In this document: one piece after another, positions 41,978-64,000 of the stretch | How positions within the stretch are numbered: position 1 is the first letter of the stretch | How the letters are laid out: each line of letters starts with the position of its first letter | From: an uncultured virus (IMG/VR IMGVR_UViG_3300002097_000869) | Taxonomy: Duplodnaviria; Heunggongvirae; Uroviricota; Caudoviricetes | IMG/VR virus record: IMGVR_UViG_3300002097_000869 | Span: 62,001-126,000 of that record | Reading direction: 5' to 3' (one strand) | Length of the DNA stretch: 64,000 bases | Notes under the pieces: generated by a model | What the model saw: only the letters and a program-made list of their open reading frames with translations | Database searches by the model: none | What the model was told of the DNA's origin: nothing | Made by a program: the position numbers and the translations under genes

Positions 41978-42008
41978 TGAATTCGTCTTGGGGTCTTTTA
42001 GATTGGGG

Positions 42009-42830: not shown

Positions 42831-42839
42831 TATCTCTCC

Positions 42840-45582: not shown

Positions 45583-45585
45583 TTT

Positions 45586-45718
45586 AAAAAGAGGTACAGC
45601 TCTAGTACCTACCCAAACGTAGGAACCACGTTGTGGTATCGTGGTGTGTTCAGGACGTGCTTTTTACACCATATAGGTCTTTTTCCTATGCACCGGGGTT
45701 TCTATTCTAGCTATTATA
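45586..45718 (-). promoter_or_regulatory. Candidate structured leader ending in an intrinsic terminator
   Basis: On the minus strand: TATAAT, four hairpins, then AGGTAC-N7-GTACCT-CTTTTT. Confidence 0.4.
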
Positions 45719-45734
45719 TATAGGAGCGTAATAA

Positions 45735-46808
45735 TCAATTTTGTGATTTCTGGCTTCTGGAGGCCACAACCGTTTGAATTCTATTTTCGAAATCCCTCTG
45801 TTTTTGTGTTATCGGAGCCACTTCCCTACCAAGTCTATCAGCCTGCCTAAGAATAAATAGTGGAAACAAACTCAAATTATTCATGTCTTCCAACTTTAGA
45901 TTCACCCTCTCAACAAAGCGCATAACCGTAGAATCTTTCCATTTTCTATCATATTGATACATATGATTAGATACCAGATGATATATAATTTTTCCTTCGT
46001 CAGAGTTGTGCAATTCAAGTCTATTTAAGATATTGGCTACTAATTTAGATCCCAAGACTTCGTGTTTATGAAAGGTGGCCCCTTTTTCATTTTTCCCCTT
46101 TGTACCTGGTTTTCCAACATCGTGTACTAGAGCAGCAAATTTTATAGTGTAATCGTTCGTAGGGCACAAGTCACAGGCCATAAGACAATGGTCATATACA
46201 GTGAACTTGTGGTACAGTTCATTTTGTGTAATGCCAAAGCAATTAGATAATTCAGGGAGAATAATATCTAGAGCCCCCACAAGCCTTAAAAACTCTATTC
46301 CTGTCGAGGGTTTTGTTGATTTTATTAGTCTCTTTAGTTCTCTCCATATAAATCTACCAGGAGTCTGTGCTAACTTTGCTACATTCTTACTTATAGAGAG
46401 GAGTAGCCTTTCTGATATAGAGAAACCGGTTTCCGCTTTCAAAGCTGCGGCTCTGATTATAAGTTGTGGTTTCTCAGCTAACTCCTGTTCTGGTTCGTGT
46501 ACTGTTGTTATTCTTTTTTTCTCTATATCTTTCATAGCTCCATAAGGGTCTATTATCTCCTTGGTTGAGGAGTTCAAGAGAAGGCCATCTAGTTTAAACG
46601 GCTGTATGGGTAGATACTTTGTTGGAGTACAGTGAGTTACGTGTTTTACTTTTATCCCTTTTGCAATTATTTGTTCCGAGGTGTCAAAAGAAACTAGGTA
46701 GACTTCTTCTGGAGTGAGGTCCATAATTAGCAAACATGCAGTGGTATAACTGAAATACAGGTTCTTGTTTCGGTATCCTTGTACCAGAGGTATAAGGCTA
46801 TTTGTCAT
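45735..46808 (-). CDS. CCA/poly(A) polymerase-like body with HD phosphohydrolase; nucleotidyltransferase head degenerate
   Basis: IIDPYG..KDI, RFIWRELKRL, QNELYH..TVYDH, AALVHDVGK, FHKHE, NHM, QAD; no DxD or RRD motifs. Confidence 0.75.
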   Translation of the reverse strand: MTNSLIPLVQGYRNKNLYFSYTTACLLIMDLTPEEVYLVSFDTSEQIIAKGIKVKHVTHCTPTKYLPIQPFKLDGLLLNSSTKEIIDPYGAMKDIEKKRITTVHEPEQELAEKPQLIIRAAALKAETGFSISERLLLSISKNVAKLAQTPGRFIWRELKRLIKSTKPSTGIEFLRLVGALDIILPELSNCFGITQNELYHKFTVYDHCLMACDLCPTNDYTIKFAALVHDVGKPGTKGKNEKGATFHKHEVLGSKLVANILNRLELHNSDEGKIIYHLVSNHMYQYDRKWKDSTVMRFVERVNLKLEDMNNLSLFPLFILRQADRLGREVAPITQKQRDFENRIQTVVASRSQKSQN

Positions 46809-47637
46809 CTTTGACTTTTTTCTCCGCTGATTTTAGGAGACCCCAAATAGCTTGGCGCGAAACTCTTCTAGGAGTAATACCTTCTGAAAAGACTACGTCC
46901 GCGATGTCTTCATTGTTGAGGCCTTGTTGATGAAGGACTAGTATAGAAGCCTTTTTCTTGCCCATATTTTCTCTTAGTTTTTCAACTAATTCATTTGCAG
47001 CAACATTATTTATTATGCTATCTTCACTAGTTATATGGTGTGACATTGCTGACTCGTCGTCTGGAACTTCTATAGTTATACTTTCGTAGGCAAGGCTGAC
47101 TATTGTTTCATAAGTGGTCTTCGAGTTCTTTGCCAGCTTATCTACCATTGCCTTTATACATCTTAACTTATCTAATGAACCGATAGAAAGTAGTAATTCT
47201 GCTTCGTGCTGCCAAACTCCTATTATTTCTCTAGGTTCTATATGACGACAGAATAATGTATGTTCCTGTTCCAAGAGCCTAGTCATTCTATCTATATAGA
47301 CCCTTGTTTTACTTATATAAATGGGGACAGATATAGATGTAGTATTTTTTATGCAGTATTCATATAAACGACCTTTTATTCTTGTTATAGCATGTATATC
47401 AAAATTGGATGAACGTGTAGGATCAAAATGCCTTGAAGCTTCTATAAGCCCTATTATTCCACACATTACAAGATCTTCATACTCTACCCCGGGTCTTACG
47501 TATTTTTCAGCCATAGTTAATACCAATTTTATATATTTTTTTATATCCTTTTCCTCTTTATTCTTTGGTATGTATCCATTAATTATATATGATATGTGTC
47601 TAAAAAATTCGGGTGACATTCTTTTGCTTCCAGACAT
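46798..47637 (-). CDS. sigma70-family sigma factor
   Basis: Region 2 EDLVMCGIIGLIEASRHFDPTR..F..A..RI; region 4 EDIAD..VSRQAI. Confidence 0.85.
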   Translation of the reverse strand: MSGSKRMSPEFFRHISYIINGYIPKNKEEKDIKKYIKLVLTMAEKYVRPGVEYEDLVMCGIIGLIEASRHFDPTRSSNFDIHAITRIKGRLYEYCIKNTTSISVPIYISKTRVYIDRMTRLLEQEHTLFCRHIEPREIIGVWQHEAELLLSIGSLDKLRCIKAMVDKLAKNSKTTYETIVSLAYESITIEVPDDESAMSHHITSEDSIINNVAANELVEKLRENMGKKKASILVLHQQGLNNEDIADVVFSEGITPRRVSRQAIWGLLKSAEKKVKDDK

Positions 47638-47649
47638 TTTGGATCCTAT

Positions 47650-48636: not shown

Positions 48637-48645
48637 AATTTCCTC

Positions 48646-50098: not shown

Positions 50099-50108
50099 CT
50101 CTTTGCTC

Positions 50109-51338
50109 CTAAAGGGATTTTCCGGCTAACCAACCGCGTTTAAGGTCTAATTGAGAGGCCTTTAATGGTACTTGTTTCCTGCAGCATATCTTTATAAACC
50201 CATCTATTTCACTCTTATATAAAGGATAGGTAGACATTTGTTTTAGTTTATTGTGTATGGATAAAACTAGGGAAGTTGGAACATCTGATATGGAAGAGTT
50301 ATTTACTATATTTCGTACATATTCTGTATCCATACAATCAAAGTATCTCTGTATATTGTTCTTATTGTCAACTAGCATTAAAAAATCTTTATTGTAATTG
50401 TTGTCTTCATATTTTTTCCATATTTCTTCAACCACTGCTTTTGTGGTTGCTATGGTAACCAAAGCAAGTGTTGGATGCACAAACCAGATTCCACTTGGAA
50501 CTCGCCATTCAAATTTTATGTCACCACTTCTCATTGCTCCAAAACAACCGTAGTCCTTTTCTTTTAGTCTGCGTTCCGAGGCTACTGGGGTATCCAATCT
50601 TACGAGAGGAAGAGCTACAAACTCGTCTAATATTCTTACTATTCTAGCTTGTATCATTTTATCCGGATGCTTTGCCCCACCTTCTATGTTTGGCAGGCCT
50701 AAATGAATGTGCCCTCCTATGTAATAACGACGGTCCATGTCTGGGTGCCAGAAACTAGCCCCACCCACCCAATCATAGTTTTCTATTTTGTGCCCCTCTG
50801 TTTCAAATATATTTTTCATGTTTTCTACTAGTTGCTTAGAGTTGTTACTAGGAGGCGGCCTCATTTCAGCGCAAGGACCATCACTACCCAGAACAGCCTG
50901 TTTTTTAGCCGGGTCATCAAATTCATATCCTAGACCATCATCTCCATATTCTGCCGTACCGTCTTTATTAACTAGAATGAACTCTGGGTCACATCCTATC
51001 ATTATTTTTTCAACTTGTTCAGAGACCCATATTTTTTTATATTTATCTATTTTTCCCATTATTTTATTATAGGTTTTTGTGGTCACAAACCCTATAGTTT
51101 TAGTATTTTCCATCCCTTCATTAGCAAGGTCTTCATTAATAGCTTGACCTATTTTTAATTTTATGTTTTCTAATACGCCTTCTACTTTTATATATGTAGT
51201 ATCTCCCCCTGATGGTCTATAATGTAATCGTGCTCTTTTAGAAAGTCTTATAAAATCATGCTCCAGTCTATTTCTTTCTGCTCGTAGATTCATTATTTCT
51301 GATGGTTTCAAAAATAATTGCATTTTTGTTTCCCGCAT
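50109..51338 (-). CDS. phiEco32-like COOH.NH2 ligase type 2
   Basis: IGCDPEF, GSDG..AEMRP, GGHIHLG, RR..YG..G..R, FEWRVPS. Confidence 0.85.
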   Translation of the reverse strand: MRETKMQLFLKPSEIMNLRAERNRLEHDFIRLSKRARLHYRPSGGDTTYIKVEGVLENIKLKIGQAINEDLANEGMENTKTIGFVTTKTYNKIMGKIDKYKKIWVSEQVEKIMIGCDPEFILVNKDGTAEYGDDGLGYEFDDPAKKQAVLGSDGPCAEMRPPPSNNSKQLVENMKNIFETEGHKIENYDWVGGASFWHPDMDRRYYIGGHIHLGLPNIEGGAKHPDKMIQARIVRILDEFVALPLVRLDTPVASERRLKEKDYGCFGAMRSGDIKFEWRVPSGIWFVHPTLALVTIATTKAVVEEIWKKYEDNNYNKDFLMLVDNKNNIQRYFDCMDTEYVRNIVNNSSISDVPTSLVLSIHNKLKQMSTYPLYKSEIDGFIKICCRKQVPLKASQLDLKRGWLAGKSL

Positions 51339-51355
51339 TATAAGTCTCCCAAAGA

Positions 51356-53215: not shown

Positions 53216-53230
53216 GTACGAGGGACTCCT

Positions 53231-53905
53231 TTATCCGAGGTCCAAGGGGATTTCTGTAGAATATTCTGGGCAAAAAGATTCGACCCAAAAAAATTCTTTT
53301 AATCCGTGGTTTGTAAATATGATATCACCTAGAGAAAGGGAAGTTGAATTTTTACGGTATAGTTTAGCCCATATGCCTTCGCATTTTTGCCATTCTTCAC
53401 AAAGTACGTCCTCTGTTCTGGATAGAGATAACAAAATATTAATTGGATCCTTTACAGAATTAAGCCCCTCTTTGTCCCAAAAAAGTACGTAGGTATTTCT
53501 ATACTTTTTTCTTAGAGTCGGCAGTATCATTTTTTTTATTTTTGCAAGGTCTTTCACTATCGTGTAGTCTTTATATAGGGGTAAAATAGCCTCTATGTCG
53601 GTGTATTCTACTAGATAACATGTAAACTTTTTGTAGCTGACCTTTTGTAATTCTTCAGTCTTAATTGTCTGGTATACGTATTTATTGTGGGGAACTTTAG
53701 TGGCAATAGGTAAAGAATGAGGAAAGAATACCAATGTTTCAGATTGTTTTTTATAGTCCGTAGTAAAACCCAAAGGTGAAGCTATACAGGAGTTAGTCAG
53801 TGCACTATTATCATAGACAGCAATTATATCTATATTATTAAACGGAAATGGGTATGGATATATTAGTTTGGTCCCTAATTTTAGATTTGGCAGTAGGGAA
53901 GGCAT
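53231..53905 (-). CDS. Hypothetical protein
   Basis: Operon ORF between the amidotransferase genes. Confidence 0.55.
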   Translation of the reverse strand: MPSLLPNLKLGTKLIYPYPFPFNNIDIIAVYDNSALTNSCIASPLGFTTDYKKQSETLVFFPHSLPIATKVPHNKYVYQTIKTEELQKVSYKKFTCYLVEYTDIEAILPLYKDYTIVKDLAKIKKMILPTLRKKYRNTYVLFWDKEGLNSVKDPINILLSLSRTEDVLCEEWQKCEGIWAKLYRKNSTSLSLGDIIFTNHGLKEFFWVESFCPEYSTEIPLDLG

Positions 53906-54747
53906 TTTTCAACCCAATCGGATGAATAGCCTTTGGTAGTCATAGGCTCAAGAATAAGGGCCTCATTTTTCTTTAGGAGGATTTCTTGAGCATCTAAGAA
54001 TATATGCCCCGCTTTATTAGTGTCTATGCCTATAATAGTGTCATTTAATAGTTGTTCATTGTTTGATATGAAGACTAAGTCCTGCCATTTCTTTGTTTTT
54101 ATTGTCAGATTATCCGATTTTTTTGCGATAAATAGTCTAATTGTGTCTGTAGCAAACACTATATAAAAATAGTTACCATGACATATAGAGGCAGCCTTCT
54201 TAAAGGCTTCTTTTATAGGTGCTCCTTCTACAATGAACTTTCCTGTCAAAGCGAGAACCAAATCAACTTTGCTGGGTAATGTTTGTAGGTTTATACGATA
54301 TTGCTTGGCTATTTTTTCTACGGATTTAATATTACCCATGCCAAACCCTATCATATTACCCATTTTTATAGGGGCTGTTTCTTTGTGGGTTTCTTTTGTT
54401 AGTATTCCGGCTATCAATGCAGTTGGGTTAATTATATCATTGTTTATTATATTTAAGAACTTGAGGTTATCTACTAGTTTTCCTTTAGAAAGAATTTCTT
54501 TTATAGTAATTAGTCCTGTTTTGTATGGTCTGACAGAGTTGGCATTTTGAAAGATGGAATTAGTACTATGGAGAGTAGAATTAAATACAGATAAGGAGCA
54601 TAGTGGATTTTCCATGCCAAGTAAAGCAATGTTAAAGAAGGTTTTTATCACAGTTTGCTTATCAGTAGCTGGGGAAGATTGAACAGCATGGGTATATTCT
54701 TTGGGCTTAGACAAACAAATGAGTAGGGTGGTGTTATGGTCGTACAT
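53881..54747 (-). CDS. Probable degenerate class II amidotransferase-fold protein
   Basis: PI..GFGMGNI, AA..CHGNY..VF..RLFIAK..L, LVFIS..L follow the Ntn layout; no N-terminal Cys. Confidence 0.4.
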   Translation of the reverse strand: MYDHNTTLLICLSKPKEYTHAVQSSPATDKQTVIKTFFNIALLGMENPLCSLSVFNSTLHSTNSIFQNANSVRPYKTGLITIKEILSKGKLVDNLKFLNIINNDIINPTALIAGILTKETHKETAPIKMGNMIGFGMGNIKSVEKIAKQYRINLQTLPSKVDLVLALTGKFIVEGAPIKEAFKKAASICHGNYFYIVFATDTIRLFIAKKSDNLTIKTKKWQDLVFISNNEQLLNDTIIGIDTNKAGHIFLDAQEILLKKNEALILEPMTTKGYSSDWVEKCLPYCQI

Positions 54748-56338
54748 ATGTACCTGACTCTTTATCCCAAATTACGCCGTTGGTTGTTTGTAAATATAAA
54801 ATCCCAAGTTTTACTTGTTCTGTTTTAGCTCCTATAATTTCACTAACAGTGCTTATCCACTCTAGTTCGTTAGAACACTCATCAATAAGGGCGGTATCTA
54901 TTGTTTCTGAGATTTTATCAAGAACTATCTTACTTATTTTGTTTTTGTTCTTCACTAAATCTTTTTCTATCTTGTCCCAAGAGTCGCCTTCACTTAACCT
55001 ATACGAACAAGGTCGCTCGGCTAATTCTAGTAGTATGTTAAAGGAATTTCCGTGTCCTCTAAGTTCCGGCTTTAATAGATTAACCATCTCTTTTGCTTGT
55101 AATCTAACCTTTTCCACGTAGGGTTCAAAGTTCTTGGTATTACTATGTCTAGGTCCCCCATAGTCTCCATAATTGTTTAAAAGTTTTTCTTGTATTTCAC
55201 TTGCCTCATCCATATAGTCTGTATCGCCACTATGTAAAATACCATAGGTACTGAAAGACACGGCCTTTATAAGTAGCGAATATACAAGGAGGGATATTGC
55301 TGTTATAGCGGAAGGGGACAGCAGGCCATCACAGAAGCGGGCTTCTAGGTGTAGTTTTTCTATAGCTTCTTTGGAATCAAATTCTATATTGGAGTAGTTT
55401 ATAAAAGAATATCTGCCCTTGGTGCCATCTGACTCGCTTATTTCTTTTATAATAGATTTCATATTTCTACGTAGAGCGGAAAACTTTAGTATTGTGTGTC
55501 TGAATTTTGCCCATCTAGTAAGAGTATCCTTGGAAGTACCCGCAGAGGAGATCCAAACTAGGGCATTATGGTAACGTCTGATAAGTTGGTGAAAGTTTGT
55601 CAATATAATTTCCGGCATAGCTCTTTCGAGTTCTATTATATTATGTTTATTATTGACTCCCTTTTTGTATATTGGTATCACTTCCCCCCTATCGTTGAAA
55701 CCAATATTATAGTATCCTGATAAAAGATGTATGTGGGTGCTAGCTCTTTCATCTACGTAAGCACCCTTAGCTATACATTTGTCTATAATATTCTTTGTTT
55801 GTTCTAATAACATATCGTAGCTTACTCTCCTACCCACCGTTGTAACTTCAACGCCTCCGTCTCCCTTTAAGCTGCCATCTTTTACGATTTGGAATACTCC
55901 GTTATCGCCAATCTTAAGAAGGTTTTCCGATGGAGTCAGTTCCTTAACAAGCTTAGCTCGTACATGGGAGGGATTTTTATTCTCGTCCAGAAAGAGGGCA
56001 CATTTGGTACAGTCCCTTATGGCATCCTTGCATGTAAAGCAAGGAGAGTAAAATTCCACGCAGTATATTCCTGGGCATTCATATTTTTGTCTTAGAGTAC
56101 AATGCTTATAGGAAGCACATTTGGTGAAACACTTGGAGTTTTCTTTTTGGGGATGAGAGCACGGGCATAGAAAGCTCTTACCATTACAGTTGCCTGTTTT
56201 TTCTAGCAGGTTTAGTTCGTGTTCGAGCCCTATTTTTAGAGTAGCTTCCAATATTCTTTTCCAATAATTAGCTTCCTCCGATAGCAAACAGGGCCTGTTC
56301 TTTTTCTTTGTGAATACTAACTTCTGATTTTGTTTCAT
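54734..56338 (-). CDS. Putative amidoligase (glutamine synthetase/GCS-like fold) with Cys-rich insert
   Basis: KIGLEHE, DGSL..GVEVTT, STHIHL, RY..IN, LEARF.DG. Confidence 0.8.
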   Translation of the reverse strand: MKQNQKLVFTKKKNRPCLLSEEANYWKRILEATLKIGLEHELNLLEKTGNCNGKSFLCPCSHPQKENSKCFTKCASYKHCTLRQKYECPGIYCVEFYSPCFTCKDAIRDCTKCALFLDENKNPSHVRAKLVKELTPSENLLKIGDNGVFQIVKDGSLKGDGGVEVTTVGRRVSYDMLLEQTKNIIDKCIAKGAYVDERASTHIHLLSGYYNIGFNDRGEVIPIYKKGVNNKHNIIELERAMPEIILTNFHQLIRRYHNALVWISSAGTSKDTLTRWAKFRHTILKFSALRRNMKSIIKEISESDGTKGRYSFINYSNIEFDSKEAIEKLHLEARFCDGLLSPSAITAISLLVYSLLIKAVSFSTYGILHSGDTDYMDEASEIQEKLLNNYGDYGGPRHSNTKNFEPYVEKVRLQAKEMVNLLKPELRGHGNSFNILLELAERPCSYRLSEGDSWDKIEKDLVKNKNKISKIVLDKISETIDTALIDECSNELEWISTVSEIIGAKTEQVKLGILYLQTTNGVIWDKESGTYVRP

Positions 56339-57392
56339 GTTTCAACCATTTAAGTATGAGTGGTGCCTCGTGCTCCTCGGGTTTATAACTTATGTTTTGC
56401 ATATATTCACCAGCTAGGTTGCCAATATTTTCTTCTATTTTTTTCATTTCTTCTTTCATCTTATTCTTATTTCTACTGTAGTACATATCTTGTACTTTAG
56501 TTGTATCTGGTAATTTATATAGTTTAGCTATGTAATCTTTGTCAGATATTTTTTCTGTTCTTTTCCAAGCAAGGCTTTCTTTATAAACTGTGTTTAGGAT
56601 GTTTTCCATAAGGACAAAAGAAGTTGTTAGTAGGCTTAGTGCAAGTCGTGGGGACTTCAAATAATATCCCCCTGGGGTTCTATACTCCAAAGTTCTTCTA
56701 CTTAAGCGGTAGTCTCCTAACTTGCCATAATCTTTTGACAATCTTCTACTATCATTGCTATCTATAAAAGCACTTGGAATACCAATATAGTAATCTAATA
56801 TGGACACCATATTCTTTATTATTTTATCAGTGTTATTTGGGGCAAATAGAAGAAGGTCTTCAGGAAGACCAAGGTGAACGTGAAAACCACATACACGATT
56901 ATACAGACAAGACCCCGCAATGGGAAACAAGCCTTTCGGTAGTGTAGTATAAATTTTTAATACTTGGTTTTTTAGATTTTCCAGGTGCTGCTCCGGAGAT
57001 AAAGCAAAATCTGGACGTAATTCCCCTAATTCGCCATCACACCCTATTTGGCTGTCGAATGGAAGGACGGAAGAGGCATCTACTAATGTTCCTTTACGAT
57101 TTACAATAAAGAATTCAGGGTCGGACCCTATTGTTAGATCGTGCTTCTCTATATATATGTTTTTTCCTGGATTGTATATTATAGGGGATAATACGTTGAC
57201 AAATATATTCTTATTCCCGTGAGAGACAATATCTTCTTTTATAGCAGGGCAAACTAATAAACTAAATTTTCCAACCGCGGTATCAAATATTAACCAATCA
57301 CCATGGTCGATACCATAAGATAGCATTATTTCTCTTGGTACTCTAACCTGGTGCATTGCGCATGAAGTAGACGGAACAGCAGTAAGAAACAT
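56268..57392 (-). CDS. phiEco32-like COOH.NH2 ligase type 2, second paralog
   Basis: IGSDPEF, GCDG..GELRP, GFHVHLG, RR..YGK.GDYR, LEYRTP. Confidence 0.87.
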   Translation of the reverse strand: MFLTAVPSTSCAMHQVRVPREIMLSYGIDHGDWLIFDTAVGKFSLLVCPAIKEDIVSHGNKNIFVNVLSPIIYNPGKNIYIEKHDLTIGSDPEFFIVNRKGTLVDASSVLPFDSQIGCDGELGELRPDFALSPEQHLENLKNQVLKIYTTLPKGLFPIAGSCLYNRVCGFHVHLGLPEDLLLFAPNNTDKIIKNMVSILDYYIGIPSAFIDSNDSRRLSKDYGKLGDYRLSRRTLEYRTPGGYYLKSPRLALSLLTTSFVLMENILNTVYKESLAWKRTEKISDKDYIAKLYKLPDTTKVQDMYYSRNKNKMKEEMKKIEENIGNLAGEYMQNISYKPEEHEAPLILKWLKHETKSEVSIHKEKEQALFAIGGS

Positions 57393-57409
57393 GCACCACC
57401 TCTTATGAA

Positions 57410-58777
57410 TTAATGATAACGAATTAACATATTTTTCTGTTCGTAAGCAGCTTTCCTTTTCCAGAATTGATTTTTAAACATTTTTATATTGTCTACATAA
57501 TCGTAGACAATAGCATTTTCTTTTCCTTCCAACGGTCTCTCAATCCTGCCAGTTGACTGAACTATTAGGCTAGAACTCTTTAGGGGGGCGGCGAGAAATA
57601 AGCGACTTGAAGGTTTATAATTAAAACCCTCAGCTAGAAGGCCATAGGTTACTATAAGTATTTTTGTTTCTCCAGAGAGAAACCCTTCTATCTGTTTATC
57701 CCTAATCTTATTTGTCTGTTTGGAATGCGGAGAAGCAACAGTTATCCCCAAACTATTAAAGATATCTGTTAGAATATCTATATGTTTAGTGGTAACAGTT
57801 AATACCATACAGGTATTTTCTAGACCATACTCATATAGTATATCTGATACTATGAGATTGTTTCTTCTTTCATTAGTAGAAATATATTCTATTAGATCTG
57901 CATAGTTGGCTCCCCATAACTTCTTCGTAGCGGTAATTTCAGTATAGTGTACTAAGACAGAAGAATTTATTATTCTATTTGCATCTACTGCATCCTTATG
58001 CTTTATTGTTGTTACTACTGGTCCTATGTAATTAAACATCAAAGGATCTAATCCATCTTCTCTATACGGGGTAGCTGTAATTCCATATAAAAATCTAGGA
58101 GAAAATCCACAGATAACCTTTAAGAAAGTAGAGGAAGGAACATGTTGGCATTCATCAACAAGTATTAATCCAAAAGAATATTTAAGTTCTTTTATTAGTT
58201 CTTTGTTACGAACTAGTGTGGGAACCATACCTATAGTAAGTATATCCCCAAGTGCCTTCTTACTCTCTCCTATAATTCCTATTTTTCCTACTTCTATAAA
58301 TTTCTCTATCTCTTTCTTAACTTGTTTAACAAGGGGCCCCCTATGAGTTAGCCATAGTGTGGGTAACCCTAGTCTGGCTATGACTTCCAAAGCCATTACA
58401 GTTTTTCCACTTCCTGCGGGGGCTATGCCAATACCCTGTCGGTGGGAAACTAAACTCTCAACCCAGGGTATTTGTATAGGTTCCAACTTTATGTTATTAT
58501 TTATTAATCTTTTACTGAAATTGGCGGTAGTGTCTTCTATAACATTTATACTATTAGTTATTTCTGTAGCCCTATAGAGATAGCCTCTAGGAACTATTAT
58601 GCCTTCGGTTATTTCTGAATATTGTTTTATGAATTTTGGTATACCGAAGGTTCGTCTGCCAAATTGTATAGCAGATTTCCACGCAGGATTCGGGAAGGTT
58701 AGGTCTTTTCTAAATTGGTCTAGTTCAGTTTTTGATATGTTTGTTATAGTTAAGTCTTTGTCAATTTTGACATCCAT
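57410..58777 (-). CDS. SF2 DEAD/DEAH-box helicase (UvsW-like)
   Basis: APAGSGKT, DECQH, TATPYREDG, LAEGFN, QSTGRIER, YDYVD; ATG at 58777. Confidence 0.92.
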   Translation of the reverse strand: MDVKIDKDLTITNISKTELDQFRKDLTFPNPAWKSAIQFGRRTFGIPKFIKQYSEITEGIIVPRGYLYRATEITNSINVIEDTTANFSKRLINNNIKLEPIQIPWVESLVSHRQGIGIAPAGSGKTVMALEVIARLGLPTLWLTHRGPLVKQVKKEIEKFIEVGKIGIIGESKKALGDILTIGMVPTLVRNKELIKELKYSFGLILVDECQHVPSSTFLKVICGFSPRFLYGITATPYREDGLDPLMFNYIGPVVTTIKHKDAVDANRIINSSVLVHYTEITATKKLWGANYADLIEYISTNERRNNLIVSDILYEYGLENTCMVLTVTTKHIDILTDIFNSLGITVASPHSKQTNKIRDKQIEGFLSGETKILIVTYGLLAEGFNYKPSSRLFLAAPLKSSSLIVQSTGRIERPLEGKENAIVYDYVDNIKMFKNQFWKRKAAYEQKNMLIRYH

Positions 58778-59034
58778 CAAATCTTCAACGCGAGTACCCC
58801 GAGCTTTAGCTCTGGGGAGGAAGCGCTCCTCCTTGTTGTATTAGTAAAGTTTTACGACCTTTTAACCAAACAGTAGTCATGGCTTTAGGTCACTTATGAT
58901 TCGTAATTAGCTGGTTTGTTATCCCCAGTCTTCCTAGATTTTACTTGAGTAATGCTTTGGCTTTCCTTTTTTGGAATTATTTCCTAGTAAGCAAGGACTT
59001 GAAAGCCCCCGTTTTTAGGCGGGGGGTTATTTAT
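58778..59034 (-). mobile_element. Non-autonomous 257-bp internally deleted derivative (MITE-like) of the IscB element
   Basis: Minus strand keeps the left end (ATAAATAACCCCCCGCCTAAAAACGGGGGCTTTCAAGTCCTTGCTTACTAGG), three short iscB fragments and the right end (CTTCCTCCCCAGAGCTAAAGCTCGGGGTACTCGCGTTGAAGATTTG). Confidence 0.88.
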
Positions 59035-59041
59035 AGTCCTC

Positions 59042-59251
59042 TTACAAGGTCGTAGAACCCATCTCTTTAGGGGTGGGATATAAGGCCTTTTGATAGTCCT
59101 CACTTTCTTTTTTTACTATATTTGTAACTTCTACTTCGTATCCTCCTTCTTCTAAGTTTTTTCTATGTCTGTCTCTAAGTTTCATAAATTCATAGTATTC
59201 TTTCATGGATTCAAATGTTCTTCCTGGAAATAGGGGAACAGTGAAAGCCAC
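59042..59251 (-). CDS. Hypothetical protein
   Basis: Operon ORF. Confidence 0.55.
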   Translation of the reverse strand: MAFTVPLFPGRTFESMKEYYEFMKLRDRHRKNLEEGGYEVEVTNIVKKESEDYQKALYPTPKEMGSTTL

Positions 59252-59706
59252 TATAAACCTTTTACTAAGGACAAGATCTTATCTTGAGCTTCCTGTGAAA
59301 CTCCAGAAGGAAGACGAGGATCCGTGTTTGCAATAGTTTCTGATGGGTCCGAGGGTGCTTCTGAGCGTACTGTTGAAACAAAGCGAACATCATTAGCTAC
59401 TATATTTACGAACCTCTTTACTCCGGCTTCGGTCTCTATGCGCCTATTTTCTAAACGTCCTTCTACTATTACTGGAGTACCTTTTGAACAATACTTCATG
59501 ACGGCTTCACCCTGGGGTCCCCAACATACTATTGACATATATGTGGTTTCTTCCTGTTTTACTCCGTCTCTAGTCTTATACCGCCTGTTGGAAGCGAGAT
59601 CAAAACGGCACCCTTTGGTACCGTCCCCTATTGGGCTAGGATCCGAAGTAAGCCTACCACCAAATACCACCAAATTAATGTCTACTGACATAAAAACCTC
59701 CCACAC
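59251..59706 (-). CDS. ssb: Single-stranded DNA-binding protein
   Basis: INLVVFGGRLTSDP, IVCWG.Q.E, KG..V.VEGRL; no acidic DIPF tail. Confidence 0.9.
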   Translation of the reverse strand: MWEVFMSVDINLVVFGGRLTSDPSPIGDGTKGCRFDLASNRRYKTRDGVKQEETTYMSIVCWGPQGEAVMKYCSKGTPVIVEGRLENRRIETEAGVKRFVNIVANDVRFVSTVRSEAPSDPSETIANTDPRLPSGVSQEAQDKILSLVKGL

Positions 59707-59712
59707 TTTCTT

Positions 59713-60063
59713 CTAGTGTTTGCGTCCTCTACACCCACTGCCACAACTATGTGACTTATCGGTGTCGAGATTATTATTACAGTTTTTGCTACTATCACAA
59801 CCACACCCCTTTTTTACATTGCTGTTCTGGTTATTCTCCCATTCGCTATCCCCTAAACACATACAATTTCTCATATCATTCTTTTTATAAACCAATCTGT
59901 CTAGGGTCTCCCATATTTTTATTTCTTCAATATTCCAAGGGTTTTTTTTGAACCCACAGCTTGTACAAACGAATACTCTAAACCGTTCGTCTCCAAAACC
60001 GTGTTGGGTTTCCATATCGGCCAACATATCTTTTCCACAAACTTTACATTTGAGATTATCCAT
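59713..60063 (-). CDS. Cys-rich hypothetical protein
   Basis: CKVC..CTSC and a Cys-rich tail. Confidence 0.55.
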   Translation of the reverse strand: MDNLKCKVCGKDMLADMETQHGFGDERFRVFVCTSCGFKKNPWNIEEIKIWETLDRLVYKKNDMRNCMCLGDSEWENNQNSNVKKGCGCDSSKNCNNNLDTDKSHSCGSGCRGRKH

Positions 60064-60289
60064 TAGTGTTCTCCTTTTTTGCGGGTATAAGACGTATTAA
60101 AGCTGAGTATGAAATCCAAGAAAAGACCAGAACTATGAAGTAACCTAATAATTTAGACCTTATTCTAAATTCTAAACCCTCCTTTATAGCATATTTTTCT
60201 AGCTTTACATATTTTCTATATTCATATAGTGCACATACTGCTCCTACTAAATGTAGTAATAAGACAGAAGTGACTAAAATGTCAAGCAT
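60056..60289 (-). CDS. Small two-TM membrane protein
   Basis: Two hydrophobic segments. Confidence 0.55.
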   Translation of the reverse strand: MLDILVTSVLLLHLVGAVCALYEYRKYVKLEKYAIKEGLEFRIRSKLLGYFIVLVFSWISYSALIRLIPAKKENTNG

Positions 60290-60290
60290 T

Positions 60291-60644
60291 TTAGTTAACT
60301 TTTGCCGATCTTAGTACGTATTTTGAATTACAAGGGCCACCTTCAAAATATATAAGCTCCCCTTCTTTTACTATTGCTCTACATCCCTCCAAATATAGAA
60401 TTCCAAACTGCATTACTCCGAATAAACTAGTGTAGTGTATTTTAAATTGACTCCCTTCTTTTGGAATATCGTTTTCTATAACTAGACCTCGTATTGGTTC
60501 TCCTCTTAATTTTATATCCGCCACTTTACGCCCTCTATTTGGAAAGAACTTTTCATCTATAGTAAATAAGTCGTACATTGTTCCTTCCGCTTCTAGAGGT
60601 ATTTCGGAATATACTATACTATGTTCAAAGGCATCCTTGTCCAT
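60291..60644 (-). CDS. Hypothetical protein
   Basis: Operon ORF. Confidence 0.5.
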   Translation of the reverse strand: MDKDAFEHSIVYSEIPLEAEGTMYDLFTIDEKFFPNRGRKVADIKLRGEPIRGLVIENDIPKEGSQFKIHYTSLFGVMQFGILYLEGCRAIVKEGELIYFEGGPCNSKYVLRSAKVN

Positions 60645-60686
60645 GTTTTTTAACGCAACCCTTTTCTTTAAAGGAGAGAAAAGACA

Positions 60687-60941
60687 CTATTCCCTTTCAC
60701 CAAAGGGATTAAATCTAGTATGGTTAGGGAGTTCAGGAATAGGTAACCCCGGCCTCCAATTTGGATCTACTTCGCGAATACGACAAATCCAGCATATCTT
60801 GCCCTCACCAGGTACATTCATAGATGAAATACGTTTGTTGTACCACTCGTTGGCTCGCAACCACATCTTACGTATTTTACCACAACGAGGACACCGACTA
60901 TGGGCCGATCGCGTTTTATGGTTGTACACTTTGGTTGTCAT
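60687..60941 (-). CDS. Small zinc-finger protein
   Basis: CPRC..CWIC. Confidence 0.5.
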   Translation of the reverse strand: MTTKVYNHKTRSAHSRCPRCGKIRKMWLRANEWYNKRISSMNVPGEGKICWICRIREVDPNWRPGLPIPELPNHTRFNPFGERE

Positions 60942-60969
60942 TTTCGTTCTCTTTTAACCATCATTGTAT

Positions 60970-61662
60970 TCACTCATATTTGTCTATCCATTTAAGAAGG
61001 CGTATTGTTCCATAGTTATATCTATTATACCTTCCCTCCCGTTTCTGACTTTCGATAATGTTTCTACACACAGATATGTTCGCGCCGTGTTCTAATAGCG
61101 CTTCTATTACTTCAGTATGGCCGCAGGCTAAGGCATATTTGAGGGCCCGATCATAGTCTGCATGTACGTTCGCCCCATGCCTAAGTAGTACTTTTACAAT
61201 AGCAAGATGCCCTGTTCTACAAGCTTTCCTAAGAGCTAAATCATTATACATATGAACATCAGCTCCTTCGGTAATAACTCTACTCAATACTTTGGGTGTA
61301 ATCTTCTCTTTTTCACCCATAATTACTTTGTTGGCGTGCCATACTTGTGGCTTATTTTCAAGGTGTCCGAAAAACCCTGCAAAAGTATCTTTTACCACGT
61401 GGGTATTACTAGGTATGGTAACTTTTCGTAGCCACGGTCCACAATCTAAAAAGGCTAGAGTGTCTTCCTTGGTAAAATAGATATCGAATGATGGCTTAGC
61501 TACATTGAGCCCAGTCTTGAGTTTTAGTCCGTCATAAATTCTATTCAGCATTATAATTTTGTAGAAACCCATTTGGGTATCGTTTTTTATTTCGTGTGGG
61601 TCGTAGCTACAATGAGCCTGGGCATGGTAGTACTTAGACATTGTTCTTTCTTCTGATGTCAA
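60970..61662 (-). CDS. Ankyrin-repeat protein
   Basis: GADVH..ALRKACRTGHLAIVKVLLRHGANVH..AL.YA..GHTEVIEALLEHGAN. Confidence 0.85.
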   Translation of the reverse strand: MTSEERTMSKYYHAQAHCSYDPHEIKNDTQMGFYKIIMLNRIYDGLKLKTGLNVAKPSFDIYFTKEDTLAFLDCGPWLRKVTIPSNTHVVKDTFAGFFGHLENKPQVWHANKVIMGEKEKITPKVLSRVITEGADVHMYNDLALRKACRTGHLAIVKVLLRHGANVHADYDRALKYALACGHTEVIEALLEHGANISVCRNIIESQKREGRYNRYNYGTIRLLKWIDKYE

Positions 61663-64000
61663 CTTCTCATTTTTTCTTTGGCGTGTTTAAACATCCAACC
61701 AGTCAGGTCTTTTGGTTCAGTATTTATGTTCTTTATCATTACAATTGGGTGCAGATTAGACCTAGTGGTAAACCAAAACTTGTGAAATTTTCTAACTATT
61801 ATATTAACAATGGAGGACCTACCTTCTAACTCTGCCTTTTTATAATATTCCTCCAAACTTTCGGGACGAAATCCACAAAGGGCGGCCTTTTTTCTTATTA
61901 TGTCAGTTAATTTTATGCTGGTAGATTTATCAAATCCTAATTCCACCATCTTATCAACTCGGGCTGTACATATCGCTTCTTTACATTCTTTTTCCAGGCT
62001 TCTTCCAGCATGCTTTCTACTAAATACACTATTAGCAACTTTGTCTAGTAGAATTTCCATTGCTATTGTAGTATCAGGGTCATTATAGTCCAATTCACCC
62101 TCTAAGATCCTCATTATATTATAGCACAAGGCAATTATTGTTCCGGTACCTCGTTTTATTCCCGTCAAACCCTCTACTATTTCTGCATTTTCTTTGGCAT
62201 TTAGTAGCCCAAATCTTTGTATGTTGTATTCATCCAATACTAGCTCCCTAAATCCAGGTATTTTCTTTAATCTGGCTTTTTCATACGCAGCCAGCCTCGC
62301 CGGGTGTGGATTATTGAACTCTGTTTCTAGGGCTACTCTGGATTCCTTACTGTGAAAGCTCATTATATATATAACATCCCCATCGAAATCTAGGGTGAGT
62401 GAAGAAAGACTACTCCCACTTACTTTGACTACATACTTAGCAAGGGGCTCATCGGTTATTTTTACTTTCTGGGCTCGTACGGACATGAATCCTAGACAAG
62501 GAAACCTTTCTACTAAAACTATGTCTCCTTCTAATATTCTTAAGTCATTAGCCATTTCTCTGTGAAGCTCTATTTGGTTAGGTTCCAGTATATCACTAAC
62601 ACCGGCTGTGGCTTTAATTGTGTAAGGATACCGAATTGAAAGACAGTAATTACTTATCTTGCCATTTTTAGAACTTAAGGTGCCTGCTATAGTGTGAAAA
62701 TATAAAAACACAGCCCTACCTACTTGTGACACACTGACTTCTTCGTTTTTATACTTATGAATAGCACTTACTATGGCATTTGCTAAGGCGGATATGTCTG
62801 ACAAACCAAACTGCCCGCTTTGATGTTTCCAAGGCTTTCTAAATTTACTGGAAGGAATTAGTATTTTGTCTAATATATAGGTGTCATTTTCATTATCCAT
62901 GTGTTTGTTGGTAAACTCTTCAGAAAATTCTGAAAACATGGCCTTCTTTAATATATATTTATAATCGTCGGGTAACTTTAGATAGAAGCCATTTGGGCAT
63001 AAGGTTTCATCAGAAACTGTCCCACTAAAATCAATAAGGTGGTGAAAGAATCCCCCTGTCTGATTAACTGGGTTTATCTTATCCCACTCTATTGTTGGTA
63101 TATCCTTTTCCTCTCTGTTGATAGATTCTAATACACGGATATATTCAAATACCTGGTCCTCGCCTTGGGAGTGTTTTAATATTTCTTTTATGATAGGATT
63201 TTTCTTTCCAAACGTGGTTAGTAGGGCTCTGAATTCTATGTGACTGAGTTTATTACCCGCTTGTCGTACACCCCTACCGTCTACTACATCAGTATCGTAT
63301 TTTGTCCATAGCTGGTCCTCAGGTGTCTTGGTGTAACCCCAGAATATCCACCCAGCGACCCCCCTAAAGTCTCCCCATTGGGTGGCAGCCGTTACCGTTC
63401 CATCTTCTGAATACCCTATATTAGAGAGTTTATCTTTTATTGATTCCATACTGGTAACGAACTCATCTTCTACTATTGTCTCTTTATCGGAGCCATGTAT
63501 CAAACTACTGAGAGCTTCTAATAGCTGCCCAAAATTCTTTCTTTTTTGTACAGAACTAGCTGAAACTATAACGTCTATGGGTACATCCCCACGAACGGGG
63601 TCATGAATTACCCCCGTATCTTGTAAGGTAATAACACCTTTATTTCCATGCCTATTGGTAATCTTTACACCCTCCTTGAAGGTTCTCTTATAAATTATGG
63701 TTATTCGTCGTATTTTAGTTGGTGCATTATTGAAATTTATTACCGATTCGATAACGGAGGATACTATAGCACTTTCGGCTCTTAAATTGAAACGAATGAA
63801 ACTACCGTCAGGTTCTATTGCTAAGGGATACAAAAAGTTTAGCGAGTCTCCTTCTCGTACCAAAGTCGTACCAAAAGTTGTATAGCTTTTGGTTTCCATG
63901 GTAAAGAGATGTTCAAGCCTATTACTAACTATTATTTGGTCTTCAAAATTTAGGGGCATATCTACAAATAGGGTCATTAAGTTCCACCCTGTTCTATTGA
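61659..64000 (-). CDS. Two-barrel RNA polymerase, beta C-terminal region fused to beta' catalytic region; 5' end lies outside the window
   Basis: beta motifs GWNL..NFEDQIIVS, NRHGNKGV, PIDVIV..R.NFGQLLE, GNKLSHIE..AL; beta' motifs VLVERFPCL and DFDGD; frame stays open to the window edge. Confidence 0.85.
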   Translation of the reverse strand, partial: NRTGWNLMTLFVDMPLNFEDQIIVSNRLEHLFTMETKSYTTFGTTLVREGDSLNFLYPLAIEPDGSFIRFNLRAESAIVSSVIESVINFNNAPTKIRRITIIYKRTFKEGVKITNRHGNKGVITLQDTGVIHDPVRGDVPIDVIVSASSVQKRKNFGQLLEALSSLIHGSDKETIVEDEFVTSMESIKDKLSNIGYSEDGTVTAATQWGDFRGVAGWIFWGYTKTPEDQLWTKYDTDVVDGRGVRQAGNKLSHIEFRALLTTFGKKNPIIKEILKHSQGEDQVFEYIRVLESINREEKDIPTIEWDKINPVNQTGGFFHHLIDFSGTVSDETLCPNGFYLKLPDDYKYILKKAMFSEFSEEFTNKHMDNENDTYILDKILIPSSKFRKPWKHQSGQFGLSDISALANAIVSAIHKYKNEEVSVSQVGRAVFLYFHTIAGTLSSKNGKISNYCLSIRYPYTIKATAGVSDILEPNQIELHREMANDLRILEGDIVLVERFPCLGFMSVRAQKVKITDEPLAKYVVKVSGSSLSSLTLDFDGDVIYIMSFHSKESRVALETEFNNPHPARLAAYEKARLKKIPGFRELVLDEYNIQRFGLLNAKENAEIVEGLTGIKRGTGTIIALCYNIMRILEGELDYNDPDTTIAMEILLDKVANSVFSRKHAGRSLEKECKEAICTARVDKMVELGFDKSTSIKLTDIIRKKAALCGFRPESLEEYYKKAELEGRSSIVNIIVRKFHKFWFTTRSNLHPIVMIKNINTEPKDLTGWMFKHAKEKMRS

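What the first reader, a model, noticed from the sequence alone, without database searches (positions are those of the whole stretch)
61659..64000. Compact single-chain beta/beta' RNA polymerase in a genome that also encodes a sigma factor
Seen: one frame carries beta motifs (NFED, RHGNKG, R.NFGQ..E, switch-like GNKLSHIE..AL), then beta' motifs (VLVERFPCL, LDFDGD), and ends about 240 aa later. The flap region between NFED and RHGNKG is short, the beta' Zn-binding region is not evident, and NADFDGD reads TLDFDGD. A sigma70-like gene lies at 46798. Established: cellular enzymes usually split these motifs over two subunits, phiKZ-like phages split them further, and YonO and crAss-like enzymes are single-chain. 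Inference: a distinct minimal two-barrel RNAP lineage with bacterial-like beta motifs, possibly working with its own sigma.
Basis: partly seen in the sequence, partly recalled or inferred. Interest (0 to 1): 0.75.

Follow-up and report, generated by a model that had tools for sequence, protein, structure and literature searches.

The report
Compact fused RNA polymerase, jumbo phage
An uncultivated giant bacteriophage encodes a single 1,039-residue protein that packs shrunken versions of both large subunits of a cell-type RNA polymerase into one chain, a little-known way for a virus to carry its own transcription enzyme.

Summary
On the minus strand, window 61659 to 64778 (778 nt past the window edge), lies a 1,039-aa ORF. 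It carries a beta-type barrel (KITNRHGNKG), then a beta'-type barrel (ERFPCLG, LDFDGD).

The window comes from a 133-kb viral record, about 58% of a jumbo phage. The fusion is not an artefact. 120 homologues of 930-1,176 aa exist in metagenomes, and contigs from four sequencing runs carry the ORF unbroken.

An AlphaFold2 model (pLDDT 91) shows residues 3-538 aligning along the whole of Rpb2/beta (Z about 21). Residues 535-1039 align along the whole of Rpb1/beta' (Z 10-12). These scores exceed those for the phage single-chain enzymes P74-26 gp62 and QDE-1 (Z 6-7).

Three complete related genomes hold no other Pfam-detectable polymerase piece, apart from weak beta' motif matches inside giant proteins in two of them.

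My reading is a self-sufficient phage transcriptase of the cell-type clade. It is a phage counterpart of the yeast killer-plasmid Orf6 Rpb2::Rpb1 fusion.

A sigma-70-family gene is real and occurs in 10 of 12 related records. Whether it serves this enzyme or the host polymerase is unresolved.

Novelty: new variant of a known kind.

The parts
61659..64000 (-). 3' 2,342 nt of the 3,120-nt gene for the 1,039-aa fused RNA polymerase. The window holds residues 261-1039 and the stop. The start codon lies at window coordinate 64778, outside the window (G000:C1:123659-126778).
63174..64000 (-). Beta/Rpb2-like half. The whole half is residues 1-535; residues 261-535 lie in the window.
   Evidence: VIA alignment of model residues 3-538 along Rpb2 44-1106 (Z 21.8, 495 aligned, rmsd 4.9) and bacterial beta 42-1079 (Z 20.8, 483 aligned, rmsd 5.2); Pfam PF00562
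63681..63923 (-). All-beta insert of about 80 aa inside the beta-type barrel (residues 286-366). It sits where the flap/SBHM insert lies. The model shows no helix here.
   Evidence: secondary structure of the model; this stretch is the gap in the A1-A3 profile alignment
63636..63665 (-). KITNRHGNKG, with the two lysines K372 and K380 invariant in the 44 aligned sequences (beta active-site motif).
61662..63173 (-). Beta'/Rpb1-like half (residues 536-1039).
   Evidence: VIA wide search: Pol I A190 Z 12.2 (372 aligned, rmsd 3.9, chain 19-1704), vaccinia Rpo147 Z 11.8 (389, rmsd 4.4), M. tuberculosis beta' Z 9.8 (396, rmsd 4.2, chain 12-1256); Foldseek
62604..62798 (-). Helical hairpin (residues 661-701) followed by a K-G...R-Y-P stretch (702-725). 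Read as clamp-helices plus switch-2 equivalents.
   Evidence: model helices H661-677 and H683-701. hhalign places 635-745 on E. coli beta' 238-375, but at only 9.8% probability. This is inference.
62361..62639 (-). Beta'-type double-psi barrel (residues 714-806) with ERFPCLG (R758, P760) and LDFDGD (D797, D799, D801). These residues are invariant in the 44 aligned sequences.
   Evidence: the barrel alone matches P23-45 gp96 at Z 9.2 (85 aligned, rmsd 2.5)
62094..62198 (-). 35-residue helix (861-895), read as the bridge helix.
   Evidence: (H861-895). The assignment rests on its position after the barrel and on the end-to-end alignment to beta'. This is inference.
61968..62078 (-). Helix-loop-helix (901-937) with invariant K922 and H923 in the loop. 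Read as a trigger-loop-like element.
   Evidence: This is inference; no residue-level alignment was obtained.
46798..47637 (-). Sigma-70-family gene (279 aa, regions 2 to 4), 14 kb downstream on the same strand.
57410..58780 (-). SF2 helicase gene, the nearest neighbour conserved with the polymerase gene (11 of 11 related loci).

Best explanation
The ORF encodes a complete, miniaturised, single-chain DNA-dependent RNA polymerase of the cell-type (beta/beta') branch of the two-barrel superfamily.

Residues 1-535 are a shrunken beta/Rpb2. Residues 536-1039 are a shrunken beta'/Rpb1. They are joined in the beta-then-beta' order.

The two double-psi barrels face each other. K372 and K380 come from the beta barrel. 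The Mg-binding D797, D799 and D801 come from the beta' barrel. A long bridge helix and a loop carrying an invariant Lys-His follow.

The enzyme is a core gene of a clade of uncultivated jumbo phages. It most likely transcribes a class of phage genes independently of the host polymerase, as a non-virion enzyme made after infection. It needs no alpha or omega assembly subunits because the two halves are covalently joined.

Shown: the sequence motifs, the conservation, the predicted fold, and the absence of other cell-type polymerase pieces. Inferred: catalytic activity, DNA template, timing, and which genes it reads.
For: ORF and motifs
- A full 1,039-aa ORF carries all catalytic motifs. In the 44-sequence alignment K372, N375, N379, K380, G381, R413, N415, Q418, R758, P760, D797, D799, G800, D801, K922 and H923 are invariant.
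- Pfam finds Rpb2_6 and Rpb1_2.

Conservation
- 121 proteins match at E <= 1e-3, of which 120 are listed. All are 930-1,176 aa, 35-58% identical, and cover 82-99% of the query. Their contigs reach 314 kb.
- An exhaustive HMMER search finds 131 representatives, 51 of them at E <= 1e-30.

Predicted fold
- The AF2 model has pLDDT 91.1 and pTM 0.87.
- The N half aligns end to end with Rpb2/beta at Z 20.6-21.8 with about 495 residues aligned.
- The C half (its own model, pLDDT 80.2) aligns end to end with Rpb1/A190/Rpo147/beta' at Z 9.8-12.3.

Genome context
- The record is viral. It carries phage replication and structural genes.
- In 5 records (3 complete), PF00562 hits only this gene. PF04998 hits nothing. 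RNA_pol_L hits nothing above its cut-off.
- The ORF is unbroken, with 0 differences, in contigs of 4 of 4 runs laid. These may include the source sample.
- The gene sits in a conserved block with an SF2 helicase in 11 of 11 related loci.
Against: - No biochemical or expression data exist.
- The second Pfam domain is just under its cut-off in this protein (23.3 against 25.3 bits).
- The bridge-helix and trigger-loop assignments have no residue-level alignment. The strong profile alignments stop at about residue 820-860.
- The clamp-helix alignment to E. coli beta' has only 9.8% probability.
- The record is 58% complete, so a second polymerase in this phage cannot be excluded.
- In four relatives, giant proteins carry an R-x-P...LDFDGD motif. 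The division of labour between enzymes is therefore unknown.
- No phage-specific promoter motif was found.
Confidence: 0.8

Rival explanations
1. The phage sigma-70-family protein is the initiation factor of this fused polymerase. Together they would form a two-polypeptide holoenzyme.
For: - A sigma homologue is present in 10 of 12 related viral records and in the window's own record. That count includes 3 of 3 complete genomes.
- Exactly one Sigma70_r2 gene was found per positive record among the 5 records searched, 4 of them positive.
- It lies on the same strand, about 14-17 kb from the polymerase gene, in every positive record.
- Sigma homologues sit on contigs of the same lengths as polymerase homologues: 62,032, 46,233, 65,899, 94,075, 41,665 and 258,514 bp.
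- The polymerase keeps a helical hairpin where beta' has the sigma-binding clamp helices.
- Only 2 of 26 sigma homologues keep Q in the 'DLIQ' stretch of region 2.2. That Q is a core-binding residue in canonical sigmas, a point I recall rather than tested, so the docking surface may have changed.
- The phiKZ non-virion enzyme uses a subunit with structural likeness to sigma (PMC13282480, passage).
Against: - Sigma factors are held typical of jumbo phages that lack their own polymerase. They are thought to redirect the host enzyme (PMC7824862 and PMC13282480, passages).
- One relative that is 86% complete has the polymerase but no detectable sigma in two searches.
- The genes are not adjacent.
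- The insert where the flap lies has no helix in the model, so the usual region-4 docking site (flap-tip helix, recalled) seems absent.
Confidence: 0.3
2. The sigma redirects the HOST polymerase to one class of phage promoters, while the fused enzyme reads another class by itself or with an unrecognised factor. This would be a mixed strategy, as in Thermus phage P23-45.
For: - Phage sigma factors acting on host core polymerase are the accepted reading (passages).
- In P23-45, a virion enzyme, a non-virion enzyme and the host polymerase each take a gene class (PMC10770324, passages).
- Several upstream regions in the parent record carry close sigma-70-type matches by eye, for example TTGTCA-17-TATAAT before the clamp-like gene.
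Against: - Sigma-70-type promoter-like sites are not enriched in window 44001-64000: 71 found against 64.9 +/- 7.6 expected.
- The host is unknown, so nothing could be tested against its polymerase.
Confidence: 0.5
3. The protein belongs to an already described single-chain phage family (YonO-like, crAss gp66-like, or P23-45 gp64/gp96-like).
For: - It is a single chain.
- The best BFVD structural neighbours are uncharacterised phage proteins. These are a 'minor tail protein' of Siphoviridae sp. ctnpt50 (E 1e-16, TMq 0.50), a 798-aa protein of Acinetobacter phage ME3 (TMq 0.40, TMt 0.50), and a Microcystis phage MaMV-DC protein.
- The profile hits P23-45 gp96 at E 2e-4 around the barrel.
Against: - Both halves align end to end with the cellular subunits at higher Z than with P74-26 gp62 (Z 7.1, 170 aligned) or QDE-1 (Z 6.3, 168 aligned). 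gp96 matches over the barrel only (85 aligned).
- Pfam detects beta and beta' domains directly.
- PHROGs gives only weak partial hits, E 1e-5 to 2e-4.
- tblastn against 50,697 phage records finds only 2 records, each covering 9% of the query.
Confidence: 0.05
4. The fusion is an assembly or gene-calling artefact, or the protein is an inactive relic.
For: None found. The second Pfam domain is marginal in this one sequence.
Against: - All 120 listed homologues are 930-1,176 aa and come from many sources.
- The ORF is identical and unbroken in 4 of 4 laid runs.
- The catalytic residues are invariant across 44 sequences that are 29-57% identical to the query.
Confidence: 0.02

Closest known systems
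Orf6 of the yeast cytoplasmic killer plasmid pGKL2 (Rpb2::Rpb1 fusion, 982 aa)
   Same: One chain of about 1,000 aa in beta(Rpb2)-then-beta'(Rpb1) order. About half of each subunit is deleted. It is thought to be the transcriptase of an extrachromosomal element (PMC2919709, passages).
   Different: Orf6 belongs to a eukaryotic cytoplasmic plasmid, not a phage. No Orf6 sequence was available here, so kinship beyond the shared superfamily is untested. No sigma gene is involved there.
Bacterial, archaeal and eukaryotic RNA polymerase large subunits (beta/Rpb2 and beta'/Rpb1)
   Same: The fold of both halves matches from end to end. The active-site motifs are the same. The best sequence hits are bacterial beta.
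   Different: 1,039 aa against roughly 2,500-2,750 aa in two chains (size recalled). No alpha- or omega-like genes. No conserved Zn cysteines. LDFDGD replaces NADFDGD. The flap is reduced to an all-beta insert.
phiKZ / AR9 non-virion and virion multisubunit polymerases of jumbo phages
   Same: Phage-encoded enzymes of the cell-type branch. AR9 beta' is a sequence hit (E 2.7e-4) and a structure hit (Z 8.7). phiKZ scores Z 8.1.
   Different: Those enzymes are split into four or five polypeptides, and those phages have no sigma-70-family gene (PMC7824862, passage). Here there is one chain and a sigma gene.
YonO, crAss-like gp66, P23-45 gp64/gp96 and QDE-1 (single-chain two-barrel clade)
   Same: A single polypeptide holds both barrels. 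The phage context is shared.
   Different: Structural similarity is lower (Z 6.3-7.1, or the barrel only) than to the cellular subunits. Passages of PMC7481178 and PMC10770324 describe YonO, the crAss enzyme and gp64 as having very low sequence similarity to cellular or known RNAPs. This protein is Pfam-detectable.
mReC phages (Weinheimer and Aylward 2020)
   Same: Uncultivated large phages with cell-type polymerase genes.
   Different: Those phages have separate beta and beta' genes of at least 800 aa each with NADxDGD (PMC7481178, methods passage).
   Same: A second family of about 990-1,065-aa proteins carries Rpb2_3 + Rpb2_6 + Rpb1_2. It aligns to this family at 99.3% probability over columns 226-833. 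Fused forms of 1,400-2,800 aa also exist and align at 99.8% probability. Vibrio phage D181 has a 1,006-aa beta-C::beta'-N fusion.
   Different: The second family lacks the insert in the beta barrel. It occurs on other contigs, one of 8.08 Mb, and is unnamed. The D181 protein ends about 70 aa after DYDGD, so it is only part of an enzyme.

Membership tests
Two-barrel RNA polymerase, cell-type (beta/beta') branch | Beta-type double-psi barrel with two active-site lysines | tested here: met
   PF00562 E 5e-11. K372 and K380 in KITNRHGNKG are invariant in the 44-sequence alignment.
Two-barrel RNA polymerase, cell-type (beta/beta') branch | Beta'-type barrel with R-x-P and the DxDGD metal triad | tested here: met
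   PF00623 E 8e-5, 23.3 bits against a 25.3-bit cut-off in this protein. It is over the cut-off in 4 of 5 records. R758, P760, D797, D799 and D801 are invariant.
Two-barrel RNA polymerase, cell-type (beta/beta') branch | Fold likeness to the whole of beta/Rpb2 and the whole of beta'/Rpb1, not only the barrels | tested here: met
   N half: Z 20.6-21.8, about 495 aligned, chain span 44-1106. C half: Z 9.8-12.3, 372-396 aligned, chain spans 11-1243 and 12-1256.
Two-barrel RNA polymerase, cell-type (beta/beta') branch | Bridge helix and trigger loop after the beta' barrel | tested here: inconclusive
   The model has a 35-residue helix 861-895, then a helix-loop-helix with invariant K922 and H923. 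No residue-level alignment reached this part.
phiKZ/AR9-type split phage polymerases | Beta and beta' each divided over two or more polypeptides | tested here: not met
   One ORF holds both. PF00562 and PF04998 find no further cell-type pieces in 5 records, 3 of them complete. PF00623 adds only weak motif hits inside giant open frames in 3 of 5 records.
mReC-type phage polymerases | Separate beta and beta' of at least 800 aa; NADxDGD | tested here: not met
   A single 1,039-aa chain with LDFDGD.
YonO / QDE-1 / crAss gp66 / P23-45 single-chain clade | Closer in structure and profile to these than to cellular subunits | tested here: inconclusive
   P74-26 gp62 Z 7.1, QDE-1 Z 6.3, gp96 barrel only at Z 9.2, against 9.8-12.3 for Rpb1/beta'. 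YonO and gp66 were not among the rows shown and no direct comparison was made.
pGKL2 Orf6-type Rpb2::Rpb1 fusion | Specific sequence kinship to Orf6 | not testable with these tools
   No Orf6 sequence could be fetched. The published family alignments (Supplementary Data 3 of PMC10770324, a 7z file) could not be read.
Sigma-70 family (the gene at 46798-47637) | Region 2 and region 4 domains | tested here: met
   PF04542 E 6e-10. TIGR02937 covers residues 29-262 at 59 bits, cut-off 42.9. phrog_351 sigma factor E 1e-15.

The most novel reading that the evidence does not exclude
This clade of jumbo phages runs a bacterial-style, sigma-dependent transcription machine made of only two polypeptides: a 1,039-aa fused beta::beta' core and a 279-aa sigma. 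That would be the smallest sigma-using two-barrel holoenzyme. In several relatives it would work alongside a second polymerase module buried in a giant virion protein of 4,600-7,700 aa that starts infection.
Probability: 0.25. Interest if true: 0.85.

Novelty: new variant of a known kind. Interest (0 to 1): 0.65.

Why it matters
It would be a natural 'minimal' version of the cell-type RNA polymerase. About 40% of the usual mass would be kept, in one chain, with both halves retaining the full domain order. That helps define which parts of beta and beta' are indispensable. It offers a small, easily expressed model for the two-barrel mechanism.

It also bears on current summaries of jumbo phages. 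Those summaries contrast phages with split multisubunit enzymes and no sigma against phages with sigma and no polymerase. This clade has both a polymerase and a sigma gene.

It bears as well on ideas that fused and split forms record early stages of polymerase evolution.

If the sigma pairs with the enzyme, a two-protein promoter-specific transcription system would be of practical use too.

Tried and rejected
Complex prediction. Polymerase residues 535-1039 were folded with the full sigma, each with its own alignment. The verdict was 'no answer' (score 0.00, mark 0.32; controls not run). This is not evidence either way. The whole enzyme plus sigma exceeds the 1,000-residue limit, so the flap-side half was left out.

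Expression. The look-up of sequencing runs listed 13 runs, 11 of them holding at least half of the sampled words. No RNA holder was listed.

Promoters.
- K-mer enrichment over the 35 intergenic gaps of at least 25 nt in the 133-kb record gave no convincing shared motif.
- The sigma-70-type scan of window 44001-64000 found 71 sites against 64.9 +/- 7.6 in shuffles. Terminator-like sites were 24 against 13.8 +/- 3.0.

Residue-level mapping onto E. coli beta and beta'. hhalign against the single sequences gave only the barrel for beta (92% probability, 70 columns) and a 9.8%-probability stretch for beta'.

Giant-protein module.
- phmmer against PDB found nothing relevant; the best hits were apolipoprotein E at E 0.012.
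- hhalign to the family covered only 30 columns around DFDGD at 71% probability.
- It therefore stays a motif-level candidate.

Host. Homologues in species-representative genomes occur only in MAG contigs of 3-43 kb. The seven strong matches fall in six bins: Arcobacteraceae, Stahlbacteria, Altiarchaeales (two contigs), Muribaculaceae, Woesearchaeota and Patescibacteria. Four more matches are weak. I read these as mis-binned phage contigs and draw no host from them.

Earlier findings of this scan returned nothing.

Literature. Searches for a described phage family of this kind found none. The library lacks most subscription journals. Supplementary Table 6 of PMC7162821 and Supplementary Data 3 of PMC10770324 were not seen.

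Conserved immediate neighbours as a specificity factor. The three adjacent genes (ankyrin 230 aa, 324 aa, 179 aa) have no homologue in 0 of 11 related loci.
Full report
WHAT IS THERE

The window is bases 62001-126000 of a 133,010-bp viral record that CheckV rates 58% complete. The flagged frame lies on the minus strand and is cut by the window edge. In the parent record the ORF runs from window coordinate 64778 down to 61659 and encodes 1,039 aa.

The protein ends 238 aa after the last aspartate of LDFDGD. I checked coordinates by translating short stretches.

The record is plainly a large tailed phage. It carries several proteins of 1,071-2,057 aa without known families, two structural-protein matches, a sliding-clamp-like protein, RecA, DnaB, primase, family A DNA polymerase, ribonucleotide reductase, ThyX, dUTPase, ClpP, homing endonucleases and a sigma factor.

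IS THE FUSION REAL

Yes.
- A word-seeded search of 5.8 billion proteins gave 121 hits, of which 120 are listed. They are 930-1,176 aa long, 35-58% identical, and cover 82-99% of the query. None has a functional name. Their contigs reach 314 kb. The identical protein lies on 13 contigs, the longest 258,514 bp.
- An exhaustive HMMER search of 1.84 billion representatives gave 131 hits, 51 of them at E <= 1e-30.
- Contigs of four sequencing runs each cover the whole gene in one piece with no differences. Some of these may be the source sample, so I count this only as agreement among assemblies.
- In an alignment of 44 members that are 29-57% identical to the query, the catalytic residues are invariant.

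WHAT IT IS

Sequence evidence:
- Pfam finds Rpb2 domain 6 (E 5e-11) and Rpb1 domain 2 (E 8e-5, just under its cut-off here but over it in 4 of 5 records).
- The family profile hits bacterial beta best (E 3e-9). For the second barrel it hits P23-45 gp96, AR9 beta' and Rpb1.

Structure evidence:
- The AlphaFold2 model built on the 44-sequence alignment is confident (pLDDT 91.1, pTM 0.87).
- Residues 3-538 align along nearly the whole of Rpb2 or beta. Examples are 9rze_B (Z 21.8, rmsd 4.9, 495 aligned, chain 44-1106) and bacterial 7vpd_C (Z 20.8, rmsd 5.2, 483 aligned, chain 42-1079).
- I folded residues 535-1039 separately (pLDDT 80.2) and searched without Foldseek pre-filtering.
- The best rows are the largest subunits, aligned end to end. 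They are Sulfolobus A' (Z 12.3), human Pol I A190 (Z 12.2, 372 aligned, chain 19-1704), vaccinia Rpo147 (Z 11.8, 389 aligned) and M. tuberculosis beta' (Z 9.8, 396 aligned, chain 12-1256).
- The solved phage and RNAi single-chain enzymes score lower or match only the barrel. P74-26 gp62 scores Z 7.1, QDE-1 Z 6.3, and P23-45 gp96 Z 9.2 over 85 residues.

So each half is a miniature of a whole subunit, not merely a barrel. The protein sits with the cell-type branch. That branch has been said to include 'derivatives with fused DPBB domains' (PMC10770324, passage).

ANATOMY

Positions are from the model and the alignment. E. coli landmarks are recalled, not computed.
- The beta barrel carries K372 and K380.
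- Between NFED and RHGNKG lies an all-beta insert of about 80 aa where the flap sits. The model shows no helix there.
- The junction is near residue 535.
- A helical hairpin (661-701) and a K-G...R-Y-P stretch follow. A weak alignment places these on the clamp helices and switch 2 of E. coli beta' (9.8% probability), so this is an inference.
- The beta' barrel carries R758, P760 and the aspartate triad.
- A 35-residue helix (861-895) comes next, then a helix-loop-helix with invariant K922 and H923. I read these as bridge helix and trigger loop, again by inference.
- No conserved cysteine cluster exists.

WHAT ELSE THE PHAGES CARRY

In five records (three complete):
- PF00562 hits only this gene.
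- PF04998 hits nothing.
- The alpha-type dimerisation domain hits nothing above its cut-off.

PF00623 also gives weak hits (E 0.002-0.016) inside giant open frames of 3,325 (cut by the contig end), 4,651 and 7,674 aa in three relatives. A fourth relative has a 7,488-aa frame with the same module. All four read R-[FY]-P-x-T-G... about 95 aa ...LD[FY]DGD. This recalls the tape-measure-fused and crAss virion polymerases. Profile comparison, however, covers only 30 columns. The window's own incomplete record has no such motif.

THE SIGMA GENE

The sigma gene is genuine.
- Homologues occur in 10 of 12 related viral records: 4 of 5 and 6 of 8, with one record searched twice. They lie about 14-17 kb from the polymerase gene.
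- One relative that is 86% complete and one that is 26% complete show none.
- Twenty-seven closer sigma homologues were found. Six contig lengths, counting the query's own 258,514-bp contig, coincide with those of polymerase homologues.

Published overviews hold that jumbo phages with their own split polymerases lack sigma factors, and that sigma-bearing ones lack polymerases and use the host enzyme (passages). A clade with both is therefore unusual. Co-conservation within a core gene block does not show partnership. I rate 'sigma serves the host enzyme' at 0.5 and 'sigma serves the phage enzyme' at 0.3.

NEIGHBOURS

In 11 of 11 related loci (one near-duplicate locus dropped) the polymerase gene is followed within 10 kb by homologues of five genes. 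These are an SF2 helicase, two COOH-NH2 ligase-type proteins, a 534-aa protein of no known family, and a glutamine amidotransferase-type protein. The genes directly flanking the polymerase are not conserved (0 of 11).

COMPARISON WITH WHAT IS KNOWN

The nearest described architecture is Orf6 of the yeast killer plasmid pGKL2. It is a 982-aa Rpb2::Rpb1 fusion that lost about half of each subunit (PMC2919709, passages). I could not obtain its sequence, so kinship is untested.

Within phages:
- The enzyme differs from the phiKZ/AR9 enzymes, which are split.
- It differs from the mReC enzymes, which have separate full-size subunits.
- It differs from the YonO/crAss/P23-45 kind.
- tblastn against 50,697 phage records found only two Vibrio phages matching 9% of the query. 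Their 1,006-aa protein is a different partial fusion, beta C-half with beta' N-half.

The searches also uncovered a second unnamed family of about 990-1,065-aa fused proteins with strong Pfam matches. It aligns to this family at 99.3% probability. A range of 1,400-2,800-aa fused forms also turned up. Fusion and shrinkage of beta and beta' therefore seem to have happened repeatedly.

One automatic cluster name in the ESM Atlas reads 'putative DNA-directed RNA polymerase', so annotation pipelines have noticed the domains. Five full-text searches found no paper describing the family, within the limits of that library.

VERDICT

I file it as a new variant of a known kind: a compact fused beta::beta' RNA polymerase that is a core gene of an uncultivated jumbo-phage clade.

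Noticed in passing
L043 (G005:C1:154058-157129), L044 (G001:C1:258977-262066), L042/L046 (G004), L045 (G003): Giant open frames of 7,674, 4,651, at least 3,325 and 7,488 aa in four related jumbo phages carry R-[FY]-P-x-T-G, then about 95 aa, then LD[FY]DGD. This is a beta'-barrel-like motif and suggests a virion-packaged polymerase module like those of crAss-like phages or P23-45. None was found in the window's own 58%-complete record.
   Followed up: partly
window 155-1570 (+) and 15886-17286 (+): Two paralogous 467-472-aa proteins carry RRXRR (E 2e-65) plus HNH domains, an IscB-like make-up. Each is preceded by a near-identical upstream leader of about 70 nt. A TnpB-like gene (OrfB_IS605 + Cas12f1-like TNB) lies just upstream of the window at G000:C1:57405-58538.
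   Followed up: no
G000:C1:47480-47668 (L004:12480-12665, +), outside the window: A 62-aa protein matches the TFIIB-type zinc ribbon (PF08271, E 1e-6, 28.6 bits against a cut-off of 29). It is a conceivable initiation factor for a cell-type polymerase, but such ribbons are promiscuous.
   Followed up: no
L052 (Vibrio phage D181, OZ196140.1 146565-149585): An annotated 'hypothetical protein' of 1,006 aa is a fusion of the C-terminal half of beta (Rpb2_6, E 1e-59) with the N-terminal half of beta' (Rpb1_1, Rpb1_2; AADYDGDA). It ends about 70 aa after the motif. This is a different, partial fusion in a cultured 187-kb phage.
   Followed up: partly
proteins P0199-P0236 (alignment A3) and P0188-P0244: An unnamed family of about 990-1,065-aa fused beta::beta' proteins lacks any insert in the beta barrel. 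One member lies on an 8.08-Mb contig. A series of 1,400-2,800-aa fused forms also exists, one of which carries intein and LAGLIDADG matches.
   Followed up: partly
window 50109-57392 (-): A block conserved with the polymerase gene in 11 of 11 related loci holds two phiEco32-like COOH-NH2 ligases, a glutamine amidotransferase-type protein and a 534-aa protein with no family. It looks like a peptide-modification module.
   Followed up: no
window 40347-45582 (-): A run of pentapeptide-repeat proteins (312, 231 and 357 aa) and a ribosomal protein S6 glutaminyl transferase-like gene lies at the point where the two convergent gene blocks meet and the GC skew flips.
   Followed up: no
window 11269-12150, 25339-26598, 29997-31379 (+): Three proteins carry CapR-homology and DUF4379 treble-clef zinc-finger repeats.
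   Followed up: no
L006:6652-6738 (-), i.e. G000:C1:129652-129738, outside the window: A single tRNA-Tyr (GTA anticodon) lies here. No tRNA is found inside the window.
   Followed up: yes
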